Assembly (NCBI GenBank): GCA_048882325.1 | Contig: JBHLRS010000010.1 | Location: forward strand, 1 to 64,000 | Length of the DNA stretch: 64,000 nucleotides | Source of the DNA: Candidatus Thorarchaeota archaeon | GTDB taxonomy: Archaea; Asgardarchaeota; Thorarchaeia; Thorarchaeales; Thorarchaeaceae | Direction of reading: 5' to 3' | Shown: positions 54,023 to 57,939 of the stretch, in pieces | How the letters are laid out: each line of letters starts with the position of its first letter | Numbering within the stretch: the stretch's first letter is position 1 | The notes under the pieces: generated by a model | What the model was told of the DNA's origin: nothing | Seen by the model: the letters and a program-made list of their open reading frames with translations, nothing else | Databases searched by the model: none | Program-made: the position numbers and the translations under genes

Positions 54023-54283
54023 TCACTTTGGTTTTCGTATCTCACGGAAGTAGAGGAATTTGAGGTCCCTATCTTGGTAAAACTTTGCAGCGGCATCAAT
54101 CGCTTTCTTTGCCGCAACTATACCATCGTGCCACTCTGAAACATAGAATTTTTTGTCAGGGTCATGTTGAGCATCAGCTAGAGTAAAACCATCAGGAAGG
54201 TCAAACTCTTCAGGCGCAAGTAGTGCAACCCGAAATTTCGACAGACCACCCTCAGACTCCAGCCAGAGTTCACAGTATGTCAT
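54023..54283 (-). CDS. Hypothetical protein (86 aa)
   Basis: Clean ORF convergent on the terminator. Confidence 0.68.
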   Translation of the reverse strand: MTYCELWLESEGGLSKFRVALLAPEEFDLPDGFTLADAQHDPDKKFYVSEWHDGIVAAKKAIDAAAKFYQDRDLKFLYFREIRKPK

Positions 54284-54469: not shown

Positions 54470-55105
54470 ATGTCGTTGAGAATAGAAGAGTCGATTTTGC
54501 TAAAGGAGAAGGCTGAGTTAGAAGCAAAAGCTAGCCCTAGTCAGGCTGACAAAAAAAGACTCGAAGATATAAAGGAACTCCTCAAAAAGAAAATCATCAG
54601 TGTAACGATGAGTCAGTCATTAGTCAATAGAATAGATGATCTTGTCCAAGAACGTGTAGGTCGTTCTCGAGCCCAATTAATTGAGGATTCAGTCAGATGG
54701 TTCCTAGACTTCACTGTCCATAAGTGGAATGAACGTGGTGTTTATGTTAACTCCTCAAGAGCAGTCTTCGAATCAGAATCTATGTCCTCCCTTTTCTTCT
54801 CAAAACTCACACCGACTGATCAGTATGAGCTGGGTGAAACCGCGGGTAGCCAGTCCCCAATTGCAGATGTCGTTCGGCTTTTCCATGGCGGTGACCCAAC
54901 GGATGAAGACAGTCGTGACTTGGTTCTCGGGCTTCTTCAGGACAATGGATGGGGCTCAATATCTTATGACAAGGGATTGATCGTTCTTGGCAGTCCATTC
55001 TATCCCGGTCCATTCATCCGTGGATATCTAGAATCCCTTCTCAACGTGAAACTTGAAGTTGTTGAAACCACTTCTAAGGAAAATGTAGCTCTAAGAGTCA
55101 AATGA
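54470..55105 (+). CDS. Ribbon-helix-helix (CopG/NikR-like) regulator with V4R-like C-terminal domain
   Basis: IISVTMSQSLVNRIDDLV...SRAQLIEDSV; YELGETAG...GWGSI...FIRGYLE. Confidence 0.78.
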   Translation: MSLRIEESILLKEKAELEAKASPSQADKKRLEDIKELLKKKIISVTMSQSLVNRIDDLVQERVGRSRAQLIEDSVRWFLDFTVHKWNERGVYVNSSRAVFESESMSSLFFSKLTPTDQYELGETAGSQSPIADVVRLFHGGDPTDEDSRDLVLGLLQDNGWGSISYDKGLIVLGSPFYPGPFIRGYLESLLNVKLEVVETTSKENVALRVK

Positions 55106-55154: not shown

Positions 55155-55580
55155 CTACCATTCCTGACCGATTTCGAGTATCTCAAATTCGCTCTCGTAA
55201 AGTCCCGGGATACTTTCGATGGTGGATCTAATAGTTGCTTGTTTATCCTTGATATTATCTGCTGAGAAATAAACTTCATAGATGCATCTGTTCTGTTCGA
55301 AACAGAACCCTGTAGTGAAAAGGACTTTGAGGTCATGTTGTTTGAATAGTTGAGTCATGGTTTGCATGAGCGCAGGATTAACCTTCTCGACCTCCAACCT
55401 AACTCGAGCTCCGCCCTCCTTCATCATCGGGATAAGGCGAATCTCCCCTGACCTCTCGAAGTAGATAACCATCGCAGCCTTCATGTCCTTCAACTCAGCG
55501 TTCTTGAAGAAATCATCTGGAAGGCTAATCTCCTTCTTCTTATGAACGTCAGCTATCATTCCCTTTGTAATACCGGCCAA
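55155..55580 (-). CDS. AbrB-like plus ACT-like domain protein
   Basis: N-terminal V.KKKEISLP...GEIRLIP (swapped hairpin-like); C-terminal beta-alpha-beta-beta-alpha-beta pattern. Confidence 0.55.
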   Translation of the reverse strand: MAGITKGMIADVHKKKEISLPDDFFKNAELKDMKAAMVIYFERSGEIRLIPMMKEGGARVRLEVEKVNPALMQTMTQLFKQHDLKVLFTTGFCFEQNRCIYEVYFSADNIKDKQATIRSTIESIPGLYESEFEILEIGQEW

Positions 55581-55751: not shown

Positions 55752-55874
55752 ATGGCAAAAGAAGGCGGAATCTATGTCTGTGATGTCTGTCAGCAAGTTA
55801 TTGAAGTCAAGAAATCTGGAGTAGGTACTCTTGTTTGTTGTAACCAACCAATGAGATTATACGAAGGAGATTGA
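55752..55874 (+). CDS. Desulforedoxin (stand-alone FeS4 domain), 40 aa, absent from the ORF track
   Basis: Translated by hand: MAKEGGIYVCDVCQQVIEVKKSGVGTLVCCNQPMRLYEGD*. Has Y-x-C-x2-C...G-T-L-V-C-C...M and an upstream ggagg RBS. Confidence 0.9.
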   Translation: MAKEGGIYVCDVCQQVIEVKKSGVGTLVCCNQPMRLYEGD

Positions 55875-55952
55875 CCTTCCCAAATTTCACACTTGACAAT
55901 GTTTATATCTACCCTAGCGGGGCGGAGCCAACACTTCTTGGGGTGTGTGAAC

Positions 55953-56510
55953 ATGATTGAAATACCCAGTGCTGTAATTCGAACTAGAGGTCTTCTTAAC
56001 TTACGAGCATATTCTGTGAATGAAGTTCTGGAATATGACGATAGATATGTGATGTATCCTACGAGGGACATCCTTGGTGAAATCAGCAAGTACGTTGTTT
56101 GGATACTCAAAGAACAGAAGGTTATCGGAGTTGCATATGTGAAGGATCTCGCTCGTGAGATCGAAGAAACAGAATCCCGAGGTGGAATGCTCGTTGGTGG
56201 AGAGCGTTTCACACCTGCAGCTAAGAAGATAGCAAAGATTTCACGTGTTGAGCTTGTTGACGGTGGTTATGCATCATTCGACCTCTTTCAACATGAACTG
56301 GTTCCTACACACATCATCGCGGCTGAAGATGAGATTCAACTAGTTCTTGACCATTATGGGATTGAGAAAAGCAAACTGCCTCGAATTTTCAGGGATGATC
56401 CTGCTGTCAAAGTTTTAGGCGCACGACTTGGACAAGTTATCCGGATCGAGCGTGATAGTCCAACAGCTGGAAAAACTTACTACTATCGGTTGGTTGTAGA
56501 CTCAAACTAA
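55953..56510 (+). CDS. rpo5: RNA polymerase subunit Rpo5/RPB5 with N-terminal jaw domain, paralogue A
   Basis: C-terminal HELVPTH...LPRI..DDP..K.LGA..GQVIRIER.SPTAG..YYYRLV. The ~105-aa N-terminal domain has KVIGVAYVK...GGMLV...FTPAAKK. Likely start is ATG 55953. Confidence 0.92.
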   Translation: MIEIPSAVIRTRGLLNLRAYSVNEVLEYDDRYVMYPTRDILGEISKYVVWILKEQKVIGVAYVKDLAREIEETESRGGMLVGGERFTPAAKKIAKISRVELVDGGYASFDLFQHELVPTHIIAAEDEIQLVLDHYGIEKSKLPRIFRDDPAVKVLGARLGQVIRIERDSPTAGKTYYYRLVVDSN

Positions 56511-56584
56511 GCTAAAATTCCTTTTCAAAATCATTGATTTAACAATGTTTATATCAATGGCTTTGAATCGAGTCGTTATCACGG

Positions 56585-57160
56585 GTGTTTTCTATCTTGT
56601 CAGAGCTACCTGAAATTCCAGCTATTGTACTTAAGACTCGGGCATTACTTGCTCTTCGAGGATTTACTGTTGACGAACTTCTCGAGTATGATGATAGGTA
56701 TGTCCTCCATCCTACCCGAGATTCTGAAAAAGGATTACTCAAATATGTTGTATGGATTCTGAAGGAGGAGAAGGTTGTGGGGGTAGCTGTAGTCAGAGAA
56801 CTCGTAAAAGAGATGGAAGAAACAGAGTCTCAGCGAGGTATGCTCGTGGGTGGAGTTCGTTTCACTCCTGCATCGAGTAAATATGCGAGGGTATCTCGTG
56901 TTGAACTTGTAGAAGGTCATTACGCTTCCTTTGATCTGTTTGGTCATGAGATGGTCCCAACTCATGTAATAGCTGAGGAACCAGAGATTCAACTTGTTCT
57001 TGAGCACTATGGAATAAATAAGACACATCTTCCGCGAATCCAAAGCAGAGACCCTGCGGCACGTGTTCTTGGAGCTAGACCAGGTCAGGTAGTAAGAGTT
57101 GAACGTTCGAGCCCAACTGCAGGAATATCATACTATTATCGTCTAGTTGTCGACTCCTAG
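56585..57160 (+). CDS. rpo5: RNA polymerase subunit Rpo5/RPB5 with N-terminal jaw domain, paralogue B
   Basis: HEMVPTH...LPRIQSRDPAAR.LGARPGQVVRVERSSPTAG.SYYYRLV; collinear with paralogue A over the full length. Confidence 0.9.
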   Translation: MFSILSELPEIPAIVLKTRALLALRGFTVDELLEYDDRYVLHPTRDSEKGLLKYVVWILKEEKVVGVAVVRELVKEMEETESQRGMLVGGVRFTPASSKYARVSRVELVEGHYASFDLFGHEMVPTHVIAEEPEIQLVLEHYGINKTHLPRIQSRDPAARVLGARPGQVVRVERSSPTAGISYYYRLVVDS

Positions 57161-57162
57161 TC

Positions 57163-57939
57163 TTAGAGGACGAACAATCCCAGTCGCATTGCAGCCAGAA
57201 ACATCACTGCACATGAAATCATTGGCAAGGTCACATTATCTGTTCCTTTCGGACTCACCAGTTCTACAATTGTTGCAGTTATCGCACCACTAAGTGCTAA
57301 TACAATCATCTCAAACCATAGAATTCTTCCACTAGTCACAAACACGGGATTCACCAGACTGAAGATACCAAACCACCAGAACGCAAGTAATGCACCTAGA
57401 AAACCGAATGTGAACACAGCTAGAGTTCCAGGTATACTTCTGTTCGAACCAAAAATCACGTGGGTTGAGTTCTTTCCATACTTCATTCCTATGGGAGCAC
57501 CCATTCCATCACCGAACATCATCATGTGAATGGCTGCTGCTGCTACAAAATAGATCTCGTAATACCCAGTGAATGTGAAAATTCCCGTCAGGATTGTTAT
57601 GGACACTGCATACCAAAATGGCCCTCTCACACTATTATTCTCTAAGTCCTCAGGGCGAGCCATCGCAGCAAAGAAACCACTGAACCTGTCGGTGTTTGCA
57701 AGAGCAAGCATAATTACGAAGGTCAGAGCAACAAGTGTCGCAACCCAGGGGTGAGGGTAAAATGGCACAGTCCATATTGCCGCTCCTGCAAACAGGTGCA
57801 CAATTCGCCGTGTCACCTCTGGGCCCAAATTCCGTTTCTTCCTTGCAATGTCAGCAACCGTTAGTACAATCACTGCATAGACTACGGCGATGAAGTAGAC
57901 AATAATGTCACCGAGTACAATTGAGAACTCCACTTGCAT
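57163..57939 (-). CDS. Polyprenol/phytol/dolichol kinase family (CTP-dependent) membrane protein
   Basis: TRRIVH, GPFWY, FGDGMGAPIG..YG, RSIPG, ATIVE...GTDNVTLP. Confidence 0.88.
   Translation of the reverse strand: MQVEFSIVLGDIIVYFIAVVYAVIVLTVADIARKKRNLGPEVTRRIVHLFAGAAIWTVPFYPHPWVATLVALTFVIMLALANTDRFSGFFAAMARPEDLENNSVRGPFWYAVSITILTGIFTFTGYYEIYFVAAAAIHMMMFGDGMGAPIGMKYGKNSTHVIFGSNRSIPGTLAVFTFGFLGALLAFWWFGIFSLVNPVFVTSGRILWFEMIVLALSGAITATIVELVSPKGTDNVTLPMISCAVMFLAAMRLGLFVL

What the first reader, a model, noticed from the sequence alone, without database searches (positions are those of the whole stretch)
55953..57160. Two tandem eukaryote-type (two-domain) Rpo5/RPB5 genes outside the rpo operon
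Seen: two adjacent ~185-190-aa paralogues, diverged at many codons so not an assembly duplicate. Each has an intact Rpo5 assembly domain plus a ~105-aa N-terminal domain (W..KE.KV.GVA.V+.L..E.EE....G.LV....FTPA). Established: canonical archaeal Rpo5 is about 80 aa, lacks the restriction-endonuclease-fold jaw domain of eukaryotic RPB5, and usually precedes rpo2/rpo1. The N-terminal pattern matches RPB5 KVGIKTIK...RALIV...MTPSAK as I recall it. No rpo2 follows here. Inference: this archaeon may build RNA polymerase variants with alternative jaw subunits, reminiscent of RPB5 paralogue specialisation in plant Pol V and trypanosomes, or these are RNAP-independent RPB5-like factors.
Basis: partly seen in the sequence, partly recalled or inferred. 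Interest (0 to 1): 0.85.

Follow-up and report, generated by a model that had tools for sequence, protein, structure and literature searches.

The report
Tandem archaeal Rpo5 genes with RPB5-type jaw
This Thorarchaeote (an Asgard archaeon) has two neighbouring, intact genes for RNA polymerase subunit Rpo5, each carrying a dead Mrr-type nuclease domain homologous to the "jaw" half of eukaryotic RPB5, which the papers I could read call eukaryote-only, so this part of our polymerases probably arose in archaea.

Summary
rpo5-A (55953-56510, 185 aa) and rpo5-B (56597-57160, 187 aa; a GTG at 56585 is a less likely start) are 69% identical. They are the only Rpb5_C genes in a 93%-complete Thorarchaeota genome and are unlinked to rpo2.

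Each protein is an about 105-aa N-domain plus a canonical RpoH/Rpb5_C domain. The N-domain passes Pfam Mrr_cat but has lost the catalytic D and QxK. It folds confidently (pLDDT 93.5) as a PD-(D/E)XK domain. As a profile without the C-domain it hits only eukaryotic RPB5 among solved structures, and the E-value improves from 3.8e-5 to 3.3e-7 with broader sampling. Pfam Rpb5_N itself does not match.

The long form is the sole rpo5 in most Asgard families and in many Bathyarchaeia, and it never sits beside rpo2. Short forms always do.

The pair arose at the base of this genus. Both copies show dN/dS of about 0.06-0.07 and each has its own conserved TATA/SD signals. Four species later lost copy B, and other Thor genera duplicated rpo5 independently. 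Whether A and B build alternative polymerases is untested, because RNA data were unavailable.

The scan has reported the two-domain form before on other genomes, including one Thor pair.

The parts
55893..55908 (+). Promoter-like element of rpo5-A: TTGACAA-TG-TTTATAT (BRE/TATA-type)
   Evidence: Read directly from the sequence. The same element is conserved before the upstream copy in 13/13 tandem genomes of the genus and before single-copy rpo5 across the family. Function is inferred, not shown.
55940..55945 (+). Shine-Dalgarno-like GGGGTG, 7 nt before the ATG of rpo5-A
   Evidence: a conserved GGGTG/GGTG precedes the start codon in the genus and family.
55953..56510 (+). rpo5-A, 185 aa: two-domain RNA polymerase subunit Rpo5/H (upstream paralogue)
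   Evidence: ORF. Pfam Rpb5_C 4.3e-25 plus Mrr_cat 7.6e-6. NCBIfam RpoH 94.9 bits against cut-off 83. AF2 pLDDT 86. Orthologue clade supported at 100/98. dN/dS 0.069.
55953..56267 (+). rpo5-A N-domain (residues 1-105): inactivated Mrr_cat / RPB5-jaw-like PD-(D/E)XK domain
   Evidence: AF2 of the domain alone gives pLDDT 93.5 and pTM 0.85. VIA Z is 10.4 to AF1548, 9.8 to NucS and 9.1 to Arabidopsis RPB5. Profile against PDB sequences hits only RPB5, at 3.8e-5 and then 3.3e-7. The catalytic D and QxK are lost.
56268..56507 (+). rpo5-A C-domain (residues 106-185): Rpb5_C assembly domain
   Evidence: Pfam positions 1-73/73. 52-55% identical to Pyrococcus/Thermococcus Rpo5 with rmsd 1.5 A.
56539..56554 (+). 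Promoter-like element of rpo5-B: TTAACAA-TG-TTTATAT, a duplicate of the one before rpo5-A
   Evidence: Conserved before the downstream copy in 13/13 tandem genomes of the genus.
56583..56587 (+). Shine-Dalgarno-like GGGTG, 9 nt before the TTG start of rpo5-B (it contains the alternative GTG 56585)
   Evidence: cacGGGTGtttt...TTGtcaga is conserved in the downstream copies of the genus.
56597..57160 (+). rpo5-B, 187 aa from TTG 56597 (191 aa if GTG 56585): two-domain Rpo5/H (downstream paralogue)
   Evidence: ORF. Pfam Rpb5_C 4.3e-25 plus Mrr_cat 6.4e-7. NCBIfam RpoH 88.6 bits against 83. Orthologue clade supported at 98/85. dN/dS 0.064. Predicted docking on the Rpo1'' core scores ipSAE 0.75 against a best control of 0.00.
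56597..56920 (+). rpo5-B N-domain (about residues 1-108): inactivated Mrr_cat / RPB5-jaw-like domain
   Evidence: Mrr_cat 29.9 bits over residues 21-111 of the 191-aa form. About 61% identical to the N-domain of copy A. The catalytic positions are lost as in A.
56921..57157 (+). rpo5-B C-domain: Rpb5_C assembly domain
   Evidence: Pfam positions 2-73/73. All confident predicted contacts with Rpo1'' fall here (B residues 108-123, 146-154, 168-185).

Best explanation
These are two functional paralogous genes for RNA polymerase subunit Rpo5 (RpoH), both of the long, eukaryote-like form. The C-terminal ~80 residues are the universal archaeal/eukaryotic assembly domain, which docks on the C-terminal part of the largest subunit (Rpo1''). 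The N-terminal ~105 residues are an Mrr-type PD-(D/E)XK nuclease domain that has lost its catalytic residues. It is the archaeal counterpart, and most likely the ancestor-like form, of the RPB5 'jaw' domain, which in eukaryotic polymerases lies beside downstream DNA and is a docking site for regulators.

In genomes with one long gene, that gene is the only rpo5, so the long form is the polymerase subunit. In this genus a tandem duplication that included the promoter produced copies A and B at the base of the genus. Both have been kept under strong purifying selection.

Inferred, not shown: the two proteins compete for the single Rpo5 site and give two polymerase populations that differ in their jaw, with modest specialisation. 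The N-domains have diverged more than the C-domains, and there is one charge-reversing change beside the Rpo1'' contact loop.
For: Domain identity. These are the only Rpb5_C matches in the 93%-complete genome.

The long form is the single rpo5 in 7+ other Asgard families and in Bathyarchaeia.

Short forms always lie directly upstream of rpo2, and long forms never do.

The N-domain profile alone against PDB sequences gives RPB5 as the top 11 hits, with E 3.8e-5 from 13 sequences and 3.3e-7 from 45 more diverse sequences. The next non-RPB5 hit has E 0.086.

For the full-length model, the top 31 Foldseek hits are RPB5 chains aligned over 140-200 columns. For the N-domain model (pLDDT 93.5), VIA Z is 9.1 to Arabidopsis NRPB5A (model 1-105 against chain 4-128), tied with Mrr-like nucleases.

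The domain aligns end to end with genuine Mrr_cat domains but has lost the catalytic D and QxK.

Pair history: the upstream clade (100/98), the downstream clade (98/85) and their union (96/91) are all supported. The four single-copy species nest in the upstream clade (99/99).

dN/dS is 0.069 (A) and 0.064 (B), below 0.09 in each domain, and paralogue dS is saturated.

A duplicated TTGACAA..TTTATAT + GGGTG signal stands before both copies in 13/13 genomes.

Copy B against the Rpo1'' core: score 0.75, best of 3 controls 0.00. This mark was reached by 58 of 80 solved complexes and 2 of 110 mismatched pairs. The runs agree in at least 55% of contacts and the partner pLDDT is at least 81. Like complexes (archaeal RNAP) are solved, so this shows likeness and not proof.
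Against: Pfam's Rpb5_N model (PF03871) does not match either protein or any frame of the genome. Only weak sub-threshold hits appear in a few other archaeal long forms.

Relative to database size, the N-domain is closer to active Mrr_cat nucleases (E about 1e-8 in 1.8 billion) than to eukaryotic RPB5-N, and no obvious eukaryotic RPB5 was seen among the best 150 representatives. An independent fusion in archaea and eukaryotes is therefore not excluded.

Structure alone cannot separate RPB5-N from Mrr-like nucleases, because their Z-scores lie within about 1.

No confident contact of the N-domain with Rpo1'' was predicted.

No expression or protein data were available.

Only 4 strictly fixed A/B differences exist and there is no systematic charge difference, so specialisation may be slight. 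Four species of the genus manage with copy A alone.
Confidence: 0.7

Rival explanations
1. Only copy A is the polymerase subunit. Copy B is an RNAP-independent RPB5-like factor or a regulatory decoy that competes for the Rpo5 site or for jaw-binding partners.
For: Four species of the genus have lost B but kept A. Single-copy relatives show that one gene suffices. B carries the radical D148R change next to the predicted Rpo1'' contact loop.
Against: B keeps every invariant residue of Rpb5_C and scores above the RpoH equivalog cut-off. Its C-domain evolves as slowly as that of A (dN/dS 0.054). It is predicted to dock on Rpo1'' through the canonical surface (0.75 against control 0.00; like complexes are solved, so this may be memory).
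Confidence: 0.15
2. This is a redundant or dosage duplication. A and B are interchangeable Rpo5 subunits kept for expression level or robustness, without functional specialisation.
For: There are very few fixed differences (4 strict, 14 relaxed) and no charge shift. The promoter and SD architecture are identical. B has been lost repeatedly without obvious replacement.
Against: Both copies have been retained, with clean orthologue clades and saturated dS, across at least 13 species. Tandem duplication of the same gene recurred independently in at least 3-4 other genera of the family, and 0 of 200 bootstrap trees give one origin. The N-domain has diverged more (61%) than the C-domain (74%). These patterns are more typical of sub- or neofunctionalisation.
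Confidence: 0.2
3. The archaeal N-domain and eukaryotic RPB5-N are convergent. An Mrr_cat domain was fused to Rpo5 in archaea independently of the event that created the eukaryotic jaw.
For: PF03871 gives no match while PF04471 passes. Genuine Mrr nucleases are the nearest non-Rpo5 relatives in the exhaustive search. The patchy distribution (Asgard families and Bathyarchaeia, but absent from a 135-genome Asgard family) allows for transfer.
Against: The domain order and junction with Rpb5_C are the same. Full-length alignments to yeast and Komagataella Rpb5 run continuously through both domains. Among all solved structures, which include Mrr-like nucleases that match structurally (1y88, 4xqk, 4f0p), only RPB5 is hit by the N-domain profile, and the hit strengthens 100-fold with broader archaeal sampling. 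The shared motif is VG[IV]..[IV][KR]...M.EE....[GA].[IL]V....[MY]TP.AK.
Confidence: 0.15
4. The N-domain is an active nuclease, making the proteins RNAP-tethered restriction or repair enzymes.
For: Pfam Mrr_cat is passed above the gathering score, and the PD-(D/E)XK fold is confidently predicted.
Against: In an alignment with 10 genuine Mrr_cat domains, the invariant second D of DGG-[IV]D is V/E/L/F, the Q of QCK is W/K/R and the K is L/V/Y/A in the Rpo5 N-domains. The only invariant Rpo5-N positions (R18, G59, T87) are structural.
Confidence: 0.02

Closest known systems
Eukaryotic RPB5 / RPABC1 (shared subunit of Pol I, II, III; Pfam PF03871 + PF01191; e.g. PDB 1dzf, 5x4z_E, 7eu0_E, 9mu7_E)
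   Same: Both have a two-domain layout with a PD-(D/E)XK-fold N-domain followed by the Rpb5_C assembly domain. Full-length sequence alignments are continuous. The N-domain profile hits only RPB5 in the PDB. RPB5 chains are the top 31 Foldseek matches of the whole model. Both N-domains are catalytically dead.
   Different: The archaeal N-domain is about 105 aa, against about 140 aa in eukaryotes. It fails Pfam Rpb5_N and passes Mrr_cat, and it aligns end to end with active Mrr nucleases. The archaeon has one polymerase, so the subunit is not shared between enzymes.
Canonical archaeal Rpo5 / RpoH (about 80 aa; e.g. Pyrococcus 8cro_H, Thermococcus 4qiw_H, Sulfolobus 2waq_H)
   Same: The C-domain is 52-55% identical to the Thermococcales proteins, with rmsd about 1.5 A. 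It passes the NCBIfam RpoH equivalog. Docking on Rpo1'' is predicted.
   Different: The canonical proteins have no N-terminal domain and are encoded directly upstream of rpo2. The short forms in Asgard genomes keep that position, whereas the genes here are long, duplicated and far from rpo2.
Mrr_cat restriction endonuclease domain (Pfam PF04471; Mrr-type, Type IV/ISP nucleases; structural relatives AF1548 1y88, NucS 2vld, MspJI 4f0p)
   Same: The fold is the same (Z 8-10.4), Pfam is passed, and the structural core motifs are shared (VGV..VREL, G-ILITT-FT, IEL-DG).
   Different: The catalytic D and QxK are replaced by non-catalytic residues. The domain is fused to an RNAP assembly domain instead of to DNA-recognition or ATPase modules.
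Plant RPB5 paralogues NRPB5 / NRPE5 (Pol II/IV versus Pol V; PDB 7eu0_E, 8hil_E, 8hyj_E)
   Same: There is more than one RPB5-family paralogue in one organism, differing mainly in the N-terminal half. Both plant proteins appear among the sequence and structure matches.
   Different: The plant paralogues serve distinct catalytic cores. Here only one rpo2 was found, so any specialisation would be between isoforms of a single enzyme. It has not been demonstrated.

Membership tests
Rpo5/RpoH/RPB5 family (RNA polymerase subunit 5) | Rpb5_C assembly domain above curated thresholds | tested here: met
   PF01191 scores 87.7 bits against cut-off 23.5 in both proteins. NF007129 RpoH equivalog scores 94.9 and 88.6 bits against 83.
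Rpo5/RpoH/RPB5 family (RNA polymerase subunit 5) | It is the organism's Rpo5: no other homologue is available to fill the essential subunit | tested here: met
   Only these two PF01191 matches exist in the 93%-complete genome. Long forms are the single copy in relatives.
Rpo5/RpoH/RPB5 family (RNA polymerase subunit 5) | Binds the C-terminal part of the largest subunit (Rpo1'') | tested here: met
   Prediction only. Copy B against the Rpo1'' core scores 0.75 with a best control of 0.00. The mark was reached by 58/80 solved and 2/110 mismatched pairs, contact agreement was at least 55% and partner pLDDT at least 81. Like complexes are solved, so the pass may be from memory. Copy A was not run.
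Rpo5/RpoH/RPB5 family (RNA polymerase subunit 5) | Gene located directly upstream of rpo2 (typical, not strictly defining) | tested here: not met
   rpo2 is on contig 58 and is preceded by a tRNA. In the single-contig relative G370 the genes lie at 281 kb and 2177 kb. Short forms do keep the position.
Eukaryote-type two-domain RPB5 (PF03871 + PF01191) | N-terminal PD-(D/E)XK-fold 'jaw' domain fused in front of Rpb5_C | tested here: met
   AF2 N-domain pLDDT is 93.5. VIA Z is 9.1 to NRPB5A (99 residues aligned, rmsd 3.2), 7.9 to ASFV RPB5 and 7.1 to NRPE5. RPB5 chains align over 140-200 columns to the full model.
Eukaryote-type two-domain RPB5 (PF03871 + PF01191) | Match to the Pfam Rpb5_N model above its gathering score | tested here: not met
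   There is no PF03871 hit at E<=1 in either protein and none at E<=10 in any frame of the genome. Only sub-threshold hits (17-19 bits against 27) appear in other archaeal long forms.
Eukaryote-type two-domain RPB5 (PF03871 + PF01191) | Specific sequence similarity of the N-domain to RPB5-N independent of the C-domain | tested here: met
   N-domain-only profiles against 177,635 PDB sequences give RPB5 from animals, plant and yeasts as the top 11 hits. Best E is 3.8e-5 (13 sequences) and 3.3e-7 (45 sequences), with no other significant hit. A single sequence finds nothing.
Eukaryote-type two-domain RPB5 (PF03871 + PF01191) | N-domain sits at the lower jaw beside downstream DNA in the assembled enzyme | not testable with these tools
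   This needs a multi-subunit structure. The two-chain prediction gave no confident N-domain contacts.
Mrr_cat restriction endonucleases (PF04471) | Pfam match above the gathering score | tested here: met
   26.5 and 29.9 bits against 21. Reciprocally, the N-domain profile retrieves proteins scoring 100-170 bits on Mrr_cat.
Mrr_cat restriction endonucleases (PF04471) | Catalytic D ... (Q/E)xK residues | tested here: not met
   In the alignment with 10 genuine Mrr_cat domains, the invariant D, Q and K are replaced in all 13 Rpo5 N-domains examined. It is an inactivated derivative, not an enzyme of this family.

The most novel reading that the evidence does not exclude
The RPB5 jaw was not a eukaryotic invention. 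An Mrr-type nuclease domain was captured by Rpo5 in archaea (Asgard and Bathyarchaeia lineages), lost catalysis, left the rpo operon, and was inherited by eukaryotes. In addition, Thorarchaeota repeatedly evolved two polymerase isoforms with alternative jaw subunits, a prokaryotic forerunner of the RPB5 paralogue specialisation seen in plant Pol II/Pol V.
Probability: 0.3. Interest if true: 0.85.

Novelty: new variant of a known kind. Interest (0 to 1): 0.7.

Why it matters
The papers I could read treat the N-terminal half of RPB5 as eukaryote-specific. [quoted passage not shown] Another calls it 'a eukaryotic N-terminal module' (PMC1802627, abstract). A survey of PD-(D/E)XK families lists Rpb5_N as Eukaryota only (PMC3424549).

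An archaeal long form that bridges Mrr nucleases and RPB5-N in sequence gives that domain a concrete origin. It also adds a polymerase feature to the list shared by eukaryotes and their archaeal relatives. It makes the function of the jaw testable in a simpler system, for example by yeast chimeras or recombinant archaeal RNAP.

The tandem pair adds something not reported for archaea in the papers searched: paralogous versions of a core RNAP subunit, kept for a long time and duplicated recurrently. This raises the possibility of polymerase isoforms in an organism with a single polymerase.

Tried and rejected
- **Single N-domain sequence against PDB sequences:** no relevant hit. A profile was needed.
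- **Pfam Rpb5_N searched over the whole genome:** nothing.
- **The search for homologous proteins with lengths 'longer':** crowded out by chance candidates and uninformative.
- **ARAGORN upstream of rpo2:** it found no tRNA, but Rfam did.
- **Assembly artefact or recent duplicate:** rejected. The proteins are 69% identical, dS is saturated, and clean orthologue clades span 13 genomes.
- **One ancient duplication explaining all pairs in the family:** 0 of 200 bootstrap trees support it. Concerted evolution before each genus radiated cannot be excluded.
- **Systematic charge or pI difference between A and B:** none found.
- **Third N-domain match in this genome (contig 11):** a separate 264-aa Mrr_cat protein without Rpb5_C, unrelated to RNAP.
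- **Active-nuclease reading:** rejected on the catalytic residues.
- **Literature:** seven searches found no paper describing a two-domain archaeal Rpo5. Subscription papers and supplementary tables were not searchable, so prior mention cannot be excluded.
Full report
**What is there.** On the + strand the window holds two adjacent ORFs. rpo5-A runs from 55953 to 56510 (185 aa). rpo5-B ends at 57160. The two proteins are 69% identical over 182 residues without gaps. Both match Pfam Rpb5_C over the whole model (E 4.3e-25) and pass the NCBIfam RpoH equivalog cut-off (94.9 and 88.6 bits against 83). Their N-terminal ~105 residues pass Pfam Mrr_cat (26.5 and 29.9 bits against 21), while Pfam Rpb5_N gives no hit. 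Names attached to close homologues place the organism in Thorarchaeota, where such proteins are annotated simply as 'RNA polymerase subunit H'.

**Signals and the start of copy B.** Each gene is preceded by the same element. TTGACAATGTTTATAT stands at 55893-55908 and TTAACAATGTTTATAT at 56539-56554. A GGGTG motif follows 7-9 nt before the start codon. This arrangement is conserved before both copies in all 13 tandem genomes of the genus, and before single-copy rpo5 across the family. I read it as a BRE/TATA promoter plus a Shine-Dalgarno site that was duplicated together with the gene. That reading is inferred from conservation and position, not shown. The GTG at 56585 lies inside the GGGTG motif. 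TTG 56597 has the spacing seen in copy A and is conserved, so copy B is more likely 187 aa than 191 aa.

**Are these the organism's Rpo5?** The genome (93% complete, 89 contigs) has no other Rpb5_C match. Its rpo2 lies on another contig and is preceded by an intron-bearing tRNA, not by rpo5. The same is true in relative G001. In the single-contig relative G370 the rpo2 and rpo5 genes lie at 281 kb and 2177 kb. Across 40 relatives every genome has Rpb5_C. Outside this genus it was a single copy in that sample, usually in an open frame of 190-245 aa. In my sample all four short forms (81-125 aa frames) lie directly upstream of rpo2, and none of the long forms does, in any family. Since Rpo5 is a universal archaeal subunit and the long gene is the only copy in those genomes, the long form must be the polymerase subunit there.

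**What is the N-domain?** Folded alone from 27 sequences it gives a very confident model (pLDDT 93.5, pTM 0.85) with the alpha-beta-beta-beta-alpha-beta core of PD-(D/E)XK nucleases. An exhaustive structural comparison puts three matches within about one Z unit of each other: the Mrr-like AF1548 (Z 10.4), NucS (9.8) and Arabidopsis RPB5 (Z 9.1, model residues 1-105 against chain residues 4-128). ASFV and Pol V RPB5 follow at 7.9 and 7.1. Foldseek gives the same mixture. Fold therefore shows the superfamily but does not decide between RPB5-N and nucleases.

Sequence does discriminate. A profile of the N-domain only, built from 13 sequences, hits only RPB5 chains among 177,635 PDB sequences. The top 11 hits come from human, pig, cattle, Drosophila, Arabidopsis and yeasts, with a best E of 3.8e-5. 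With 45 more diverse sequences the best E improves to 3.3e-7, and the next non-RPB5 hit has E 0.086. Nucleases that match structurally and are in the PDB (1y88, 4xqk, 4f0p) are not hit by sequence. Full-length phmmer alignments to Komagataella and yeast Rpb5 run continuously through both domains. For the two-domain model, the top 31 Foldseek hits are RPB5 chains aligned over 140-200 columns.

**Relation to Mrr nucleases.** The exhaustive search of 1.8 billion representatives with the N-domain profile found 578 proteins. Ranks 1-52 are almost all Rpb5_C carriers or fragments of them. Below that come genuine Mrr_cat nucleases (100-170 bits on Pfam Mrr_cat), at E 1e-8 to 1e-5. Relative to database size, that is stronger than the RPB5 signal.

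An alignment with ten such nucleases is collinear from end to end and keeps the structural core. However, the second Asp of DGG-[IV]D is V/E/L/F in the Rpo5 N-domains, and the Gln and Lys of QCK are W/K/R and L/V/Y/A. The only invariant positions in the Rpo5 N-domains are R18, G59 and T87. The domain is therefore an inactivated Mrr_cat domain that lies, in sequence, between active Mrr nucleases and the more diverged eukaryotic RPB5-N. This explains why Pfam assigns it to Mrr_cat and not to Rpb5_N. The most economical reading is a single capture of an Mrr domain by Rpo5, later inherited and further modified in eukaryotes. Convergent fusion is not excluded, and I give it about 15%.

**Distribution.** The N-domain profile matches 216 of 400 genomes of the phylum. 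It is found in nearly all families, with a few exceptions: one family has it in 1 of 135 genomes, another in 2 of 14, and several small families lack it. Records with organism titles show the long form in Thorarchaeota, Jordarchaeia, Sifarchaeum, a record labelled Hermodarchaeota, and Heimdallarchaeota. Outside the Asgard group it occurs in many Bathyarchaeia and in a record labelled 'Thermoproteota archaeon'. In those records the N-domain scores E 1e-17 to 1e-25 over its full length. The feature is thus not Asgard-specific. The scan has already reported it on other genomes: 40 notes in at least 36 genomes, including one Thorarchaeote tandem pair. My tests agree with those notes.

**The pair.** A careful maximum-likelihood tree of 66 long forms gives three well-supported groupings for this genus: an upstream-copy clade (100/98), a downstream-copy clade (98/85), and their union (96/91). 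The union excludes the pairs of other genera. The duplication therefore dates to the base of the genus. Four species with one gene (G001, G006, G012, G017) nest inside the upstream clade next to G009 (99/99), which indicates secondary loss of copy B. In G001 a 6-kb locus shows only one gene.

Tandem pairs in four other genera of the family do not join either clade, and no bootstrap tree gives a single origin (0 of 200). Duplication of rpo5 therefore recurred, unless older pairs were homogenised by gene conversion before each genus radiated.

Within the genus, dN/dS among orthologues is 0.069 for A and 0.064 for B, and it is below 0.09 in each domain. dS values are near saturation, so these figures are approximate. 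Paralogues are saturated at synonymous sites. Neither copy is decaying.

Divergence between A and B is greater in the N-domain (about 61% identity) than in the C-domain (about 74%). Only four positions are strictly fixed between the types (L4I, N16A, D148R, V152A), or 14 under a relaxed criterion. There is no systematic charge difference.

**Assembly test.** Copy B was predicted together with the Rpo1'' core from the same genome (residues 130-520 of P0286). The score was 0.75 and the best of 3 controls was 0.00. That mark was reached by 58 of 80 solved complexes and 2 of 110 mismatched pairs. The runs agreed in at least 55% of contacts and the partner's pLDDT was at least 81. My own alignment was used, so the calibration counts hold only roughly. 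Archaeal RNAP structures containing this pair are solved, so the pass shows likeness to them and does not show that this copy binds. All confident contacts are in the C-domain (B residues 108-123, 146-154, 168-185). The two type-specific C-domain substitutions (B151 and B155 by my numbering) lie within or next to the 146-154 contact loop without being listed as contacts. No confident N-domain contact was predicted, which fits a mobile jaw but does not demonstrate one.

**Mechanism, with what is shown and what is inferred.**
- Shown: there are two intact, long-retained, selectively constrained genes. The C-domain is a canonical Rpo5 and the N-domain is a dead Mrr-type fold. The N-domain has specific sequence similarity to RPB5-N. 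The long form is the sole rpo5 in many lineages and is unlinked to rpo2.
- Inferred: the N-domain occupies the lower-jaw position beside downstream DNA, as in eukaryotic polymerases. A and B compete for the single Rpo5 site and yield two enzyme populations. The jaw was inherited by eukaryotes.
- Untested: expression of either copy, any functional difference between A and B, and any binding partner of the N-domain.

**Literature.** Seven full-text searches found no description of a two-domain archaeal Rpo5. A 2026 survey of small-subunit evolution across archaea modelled Thorarchaeota and Bathyarchaeota Rpo5 without commenting on an N-domain (PMC13257274). A 2018 review lists Rpo8 and Elf1, but not Rpo5, among eukaryote-like features of Asgard and TACK polymerases (PMC7289017). 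Subscription papers and supplementary tables could not be searched.

**Verdict.** This is a new variant of a known subunit family: the archaeal long form, here as a conserved tandem pair. It is of clear interest for the origin of the eukaryotic polymerase. The idea of alternative polymerase isoforms is plausible but open.

Noticed in passing
window 55752-55874 (+): A 40-aa ORF just upstream of rpo5-A encodes a stand-alone desulforedoxin-type domain (Pfam Desulfoferrod_N, E 1.3e-12, 35/36 model positions). It has its own A/T-rich upstream region and a GGAGG motif. It is too short for default ORF lists.
   Followed up: partly
L140:2828-3050 (G000 contig 58, start of rpo1''): Rpo1'' begins with a Lys/Thr/Ala/Pro-rich low-complexity tail of about 75 residues (KKTT/AAKKP-type repeats; a weak, below-cut-off hit to the histone H1-like HC2 family, 31.5 bits) and ends in a short basic tail. 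A DNA-binding extension on the largest subunit would be unusual.
   Followed up: no
L057:23-128 (G000 contig 58) and L058:820-925 (G001): The slot directly upstream of rpo2, where canonical archaea have rpo5, holds a conserved tRNA gene of about 106 nt (Rfam 56-57 bits). ARAGORN missed it, presumably because of an intron.
   Followed up: partly
P0140 (481 aa), P0168 (436 aa), P0175 (378 aa), P0236 (293 aa); G039:C63:11510-11713 (465-aa frame): Some Rpo5 homologues carry two or three tandem dead-Mrr/jaw-like domains in front of Rpb5_C. In one Asgard family most genomes give 2-3 N-domain matches. This points to multi-jaw versions of the subunit.
   Followed up: partly
L036:1102-1896 (G000 contig 11): A separate 264-aa protein has a C-terminal Mrr_cat domain (35.3 bits) and no Rpb5_C. 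It is the only other match to the N-domain profile in this genome (E 3e-4).
   Followed up: partly
L127 and L129 (JASFPO010000003.1 and JASFPO010000055.1, one Bathyarchaeota MAG): One Bathyarchaeota bin holds two unlinked long-form rpo5 genes on different contigs. This may be a second, non-tandem case of Rpo5 paralogy, or bin contamination.
   Followed up: no
P0172 (220 aa) and P0154 (561 aa): P0172 combines the jaw-like or Mrr-like domain with an Smr nuclease domain. P0154 reads as an N-domain, then part of a Cpn60/TCP-1 chaperonin, then a partial Rpb5_C, and is probably a gene-call or assembly chimera.
   Followed up: no
window 57163-57939 (-), 55155-55580 (-), 54023-54283 (-): Three neighbours have no Pfam match at E<=0.01: a 258-aa multi-pass membrane protein directly downstream and convergent with rpo5-B, a 141-aa protein, and an 86-aa protein. 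The 211-aa gene at 54470-55105 has only a weak ribbon-helix-helix hit.
   Followed up: no
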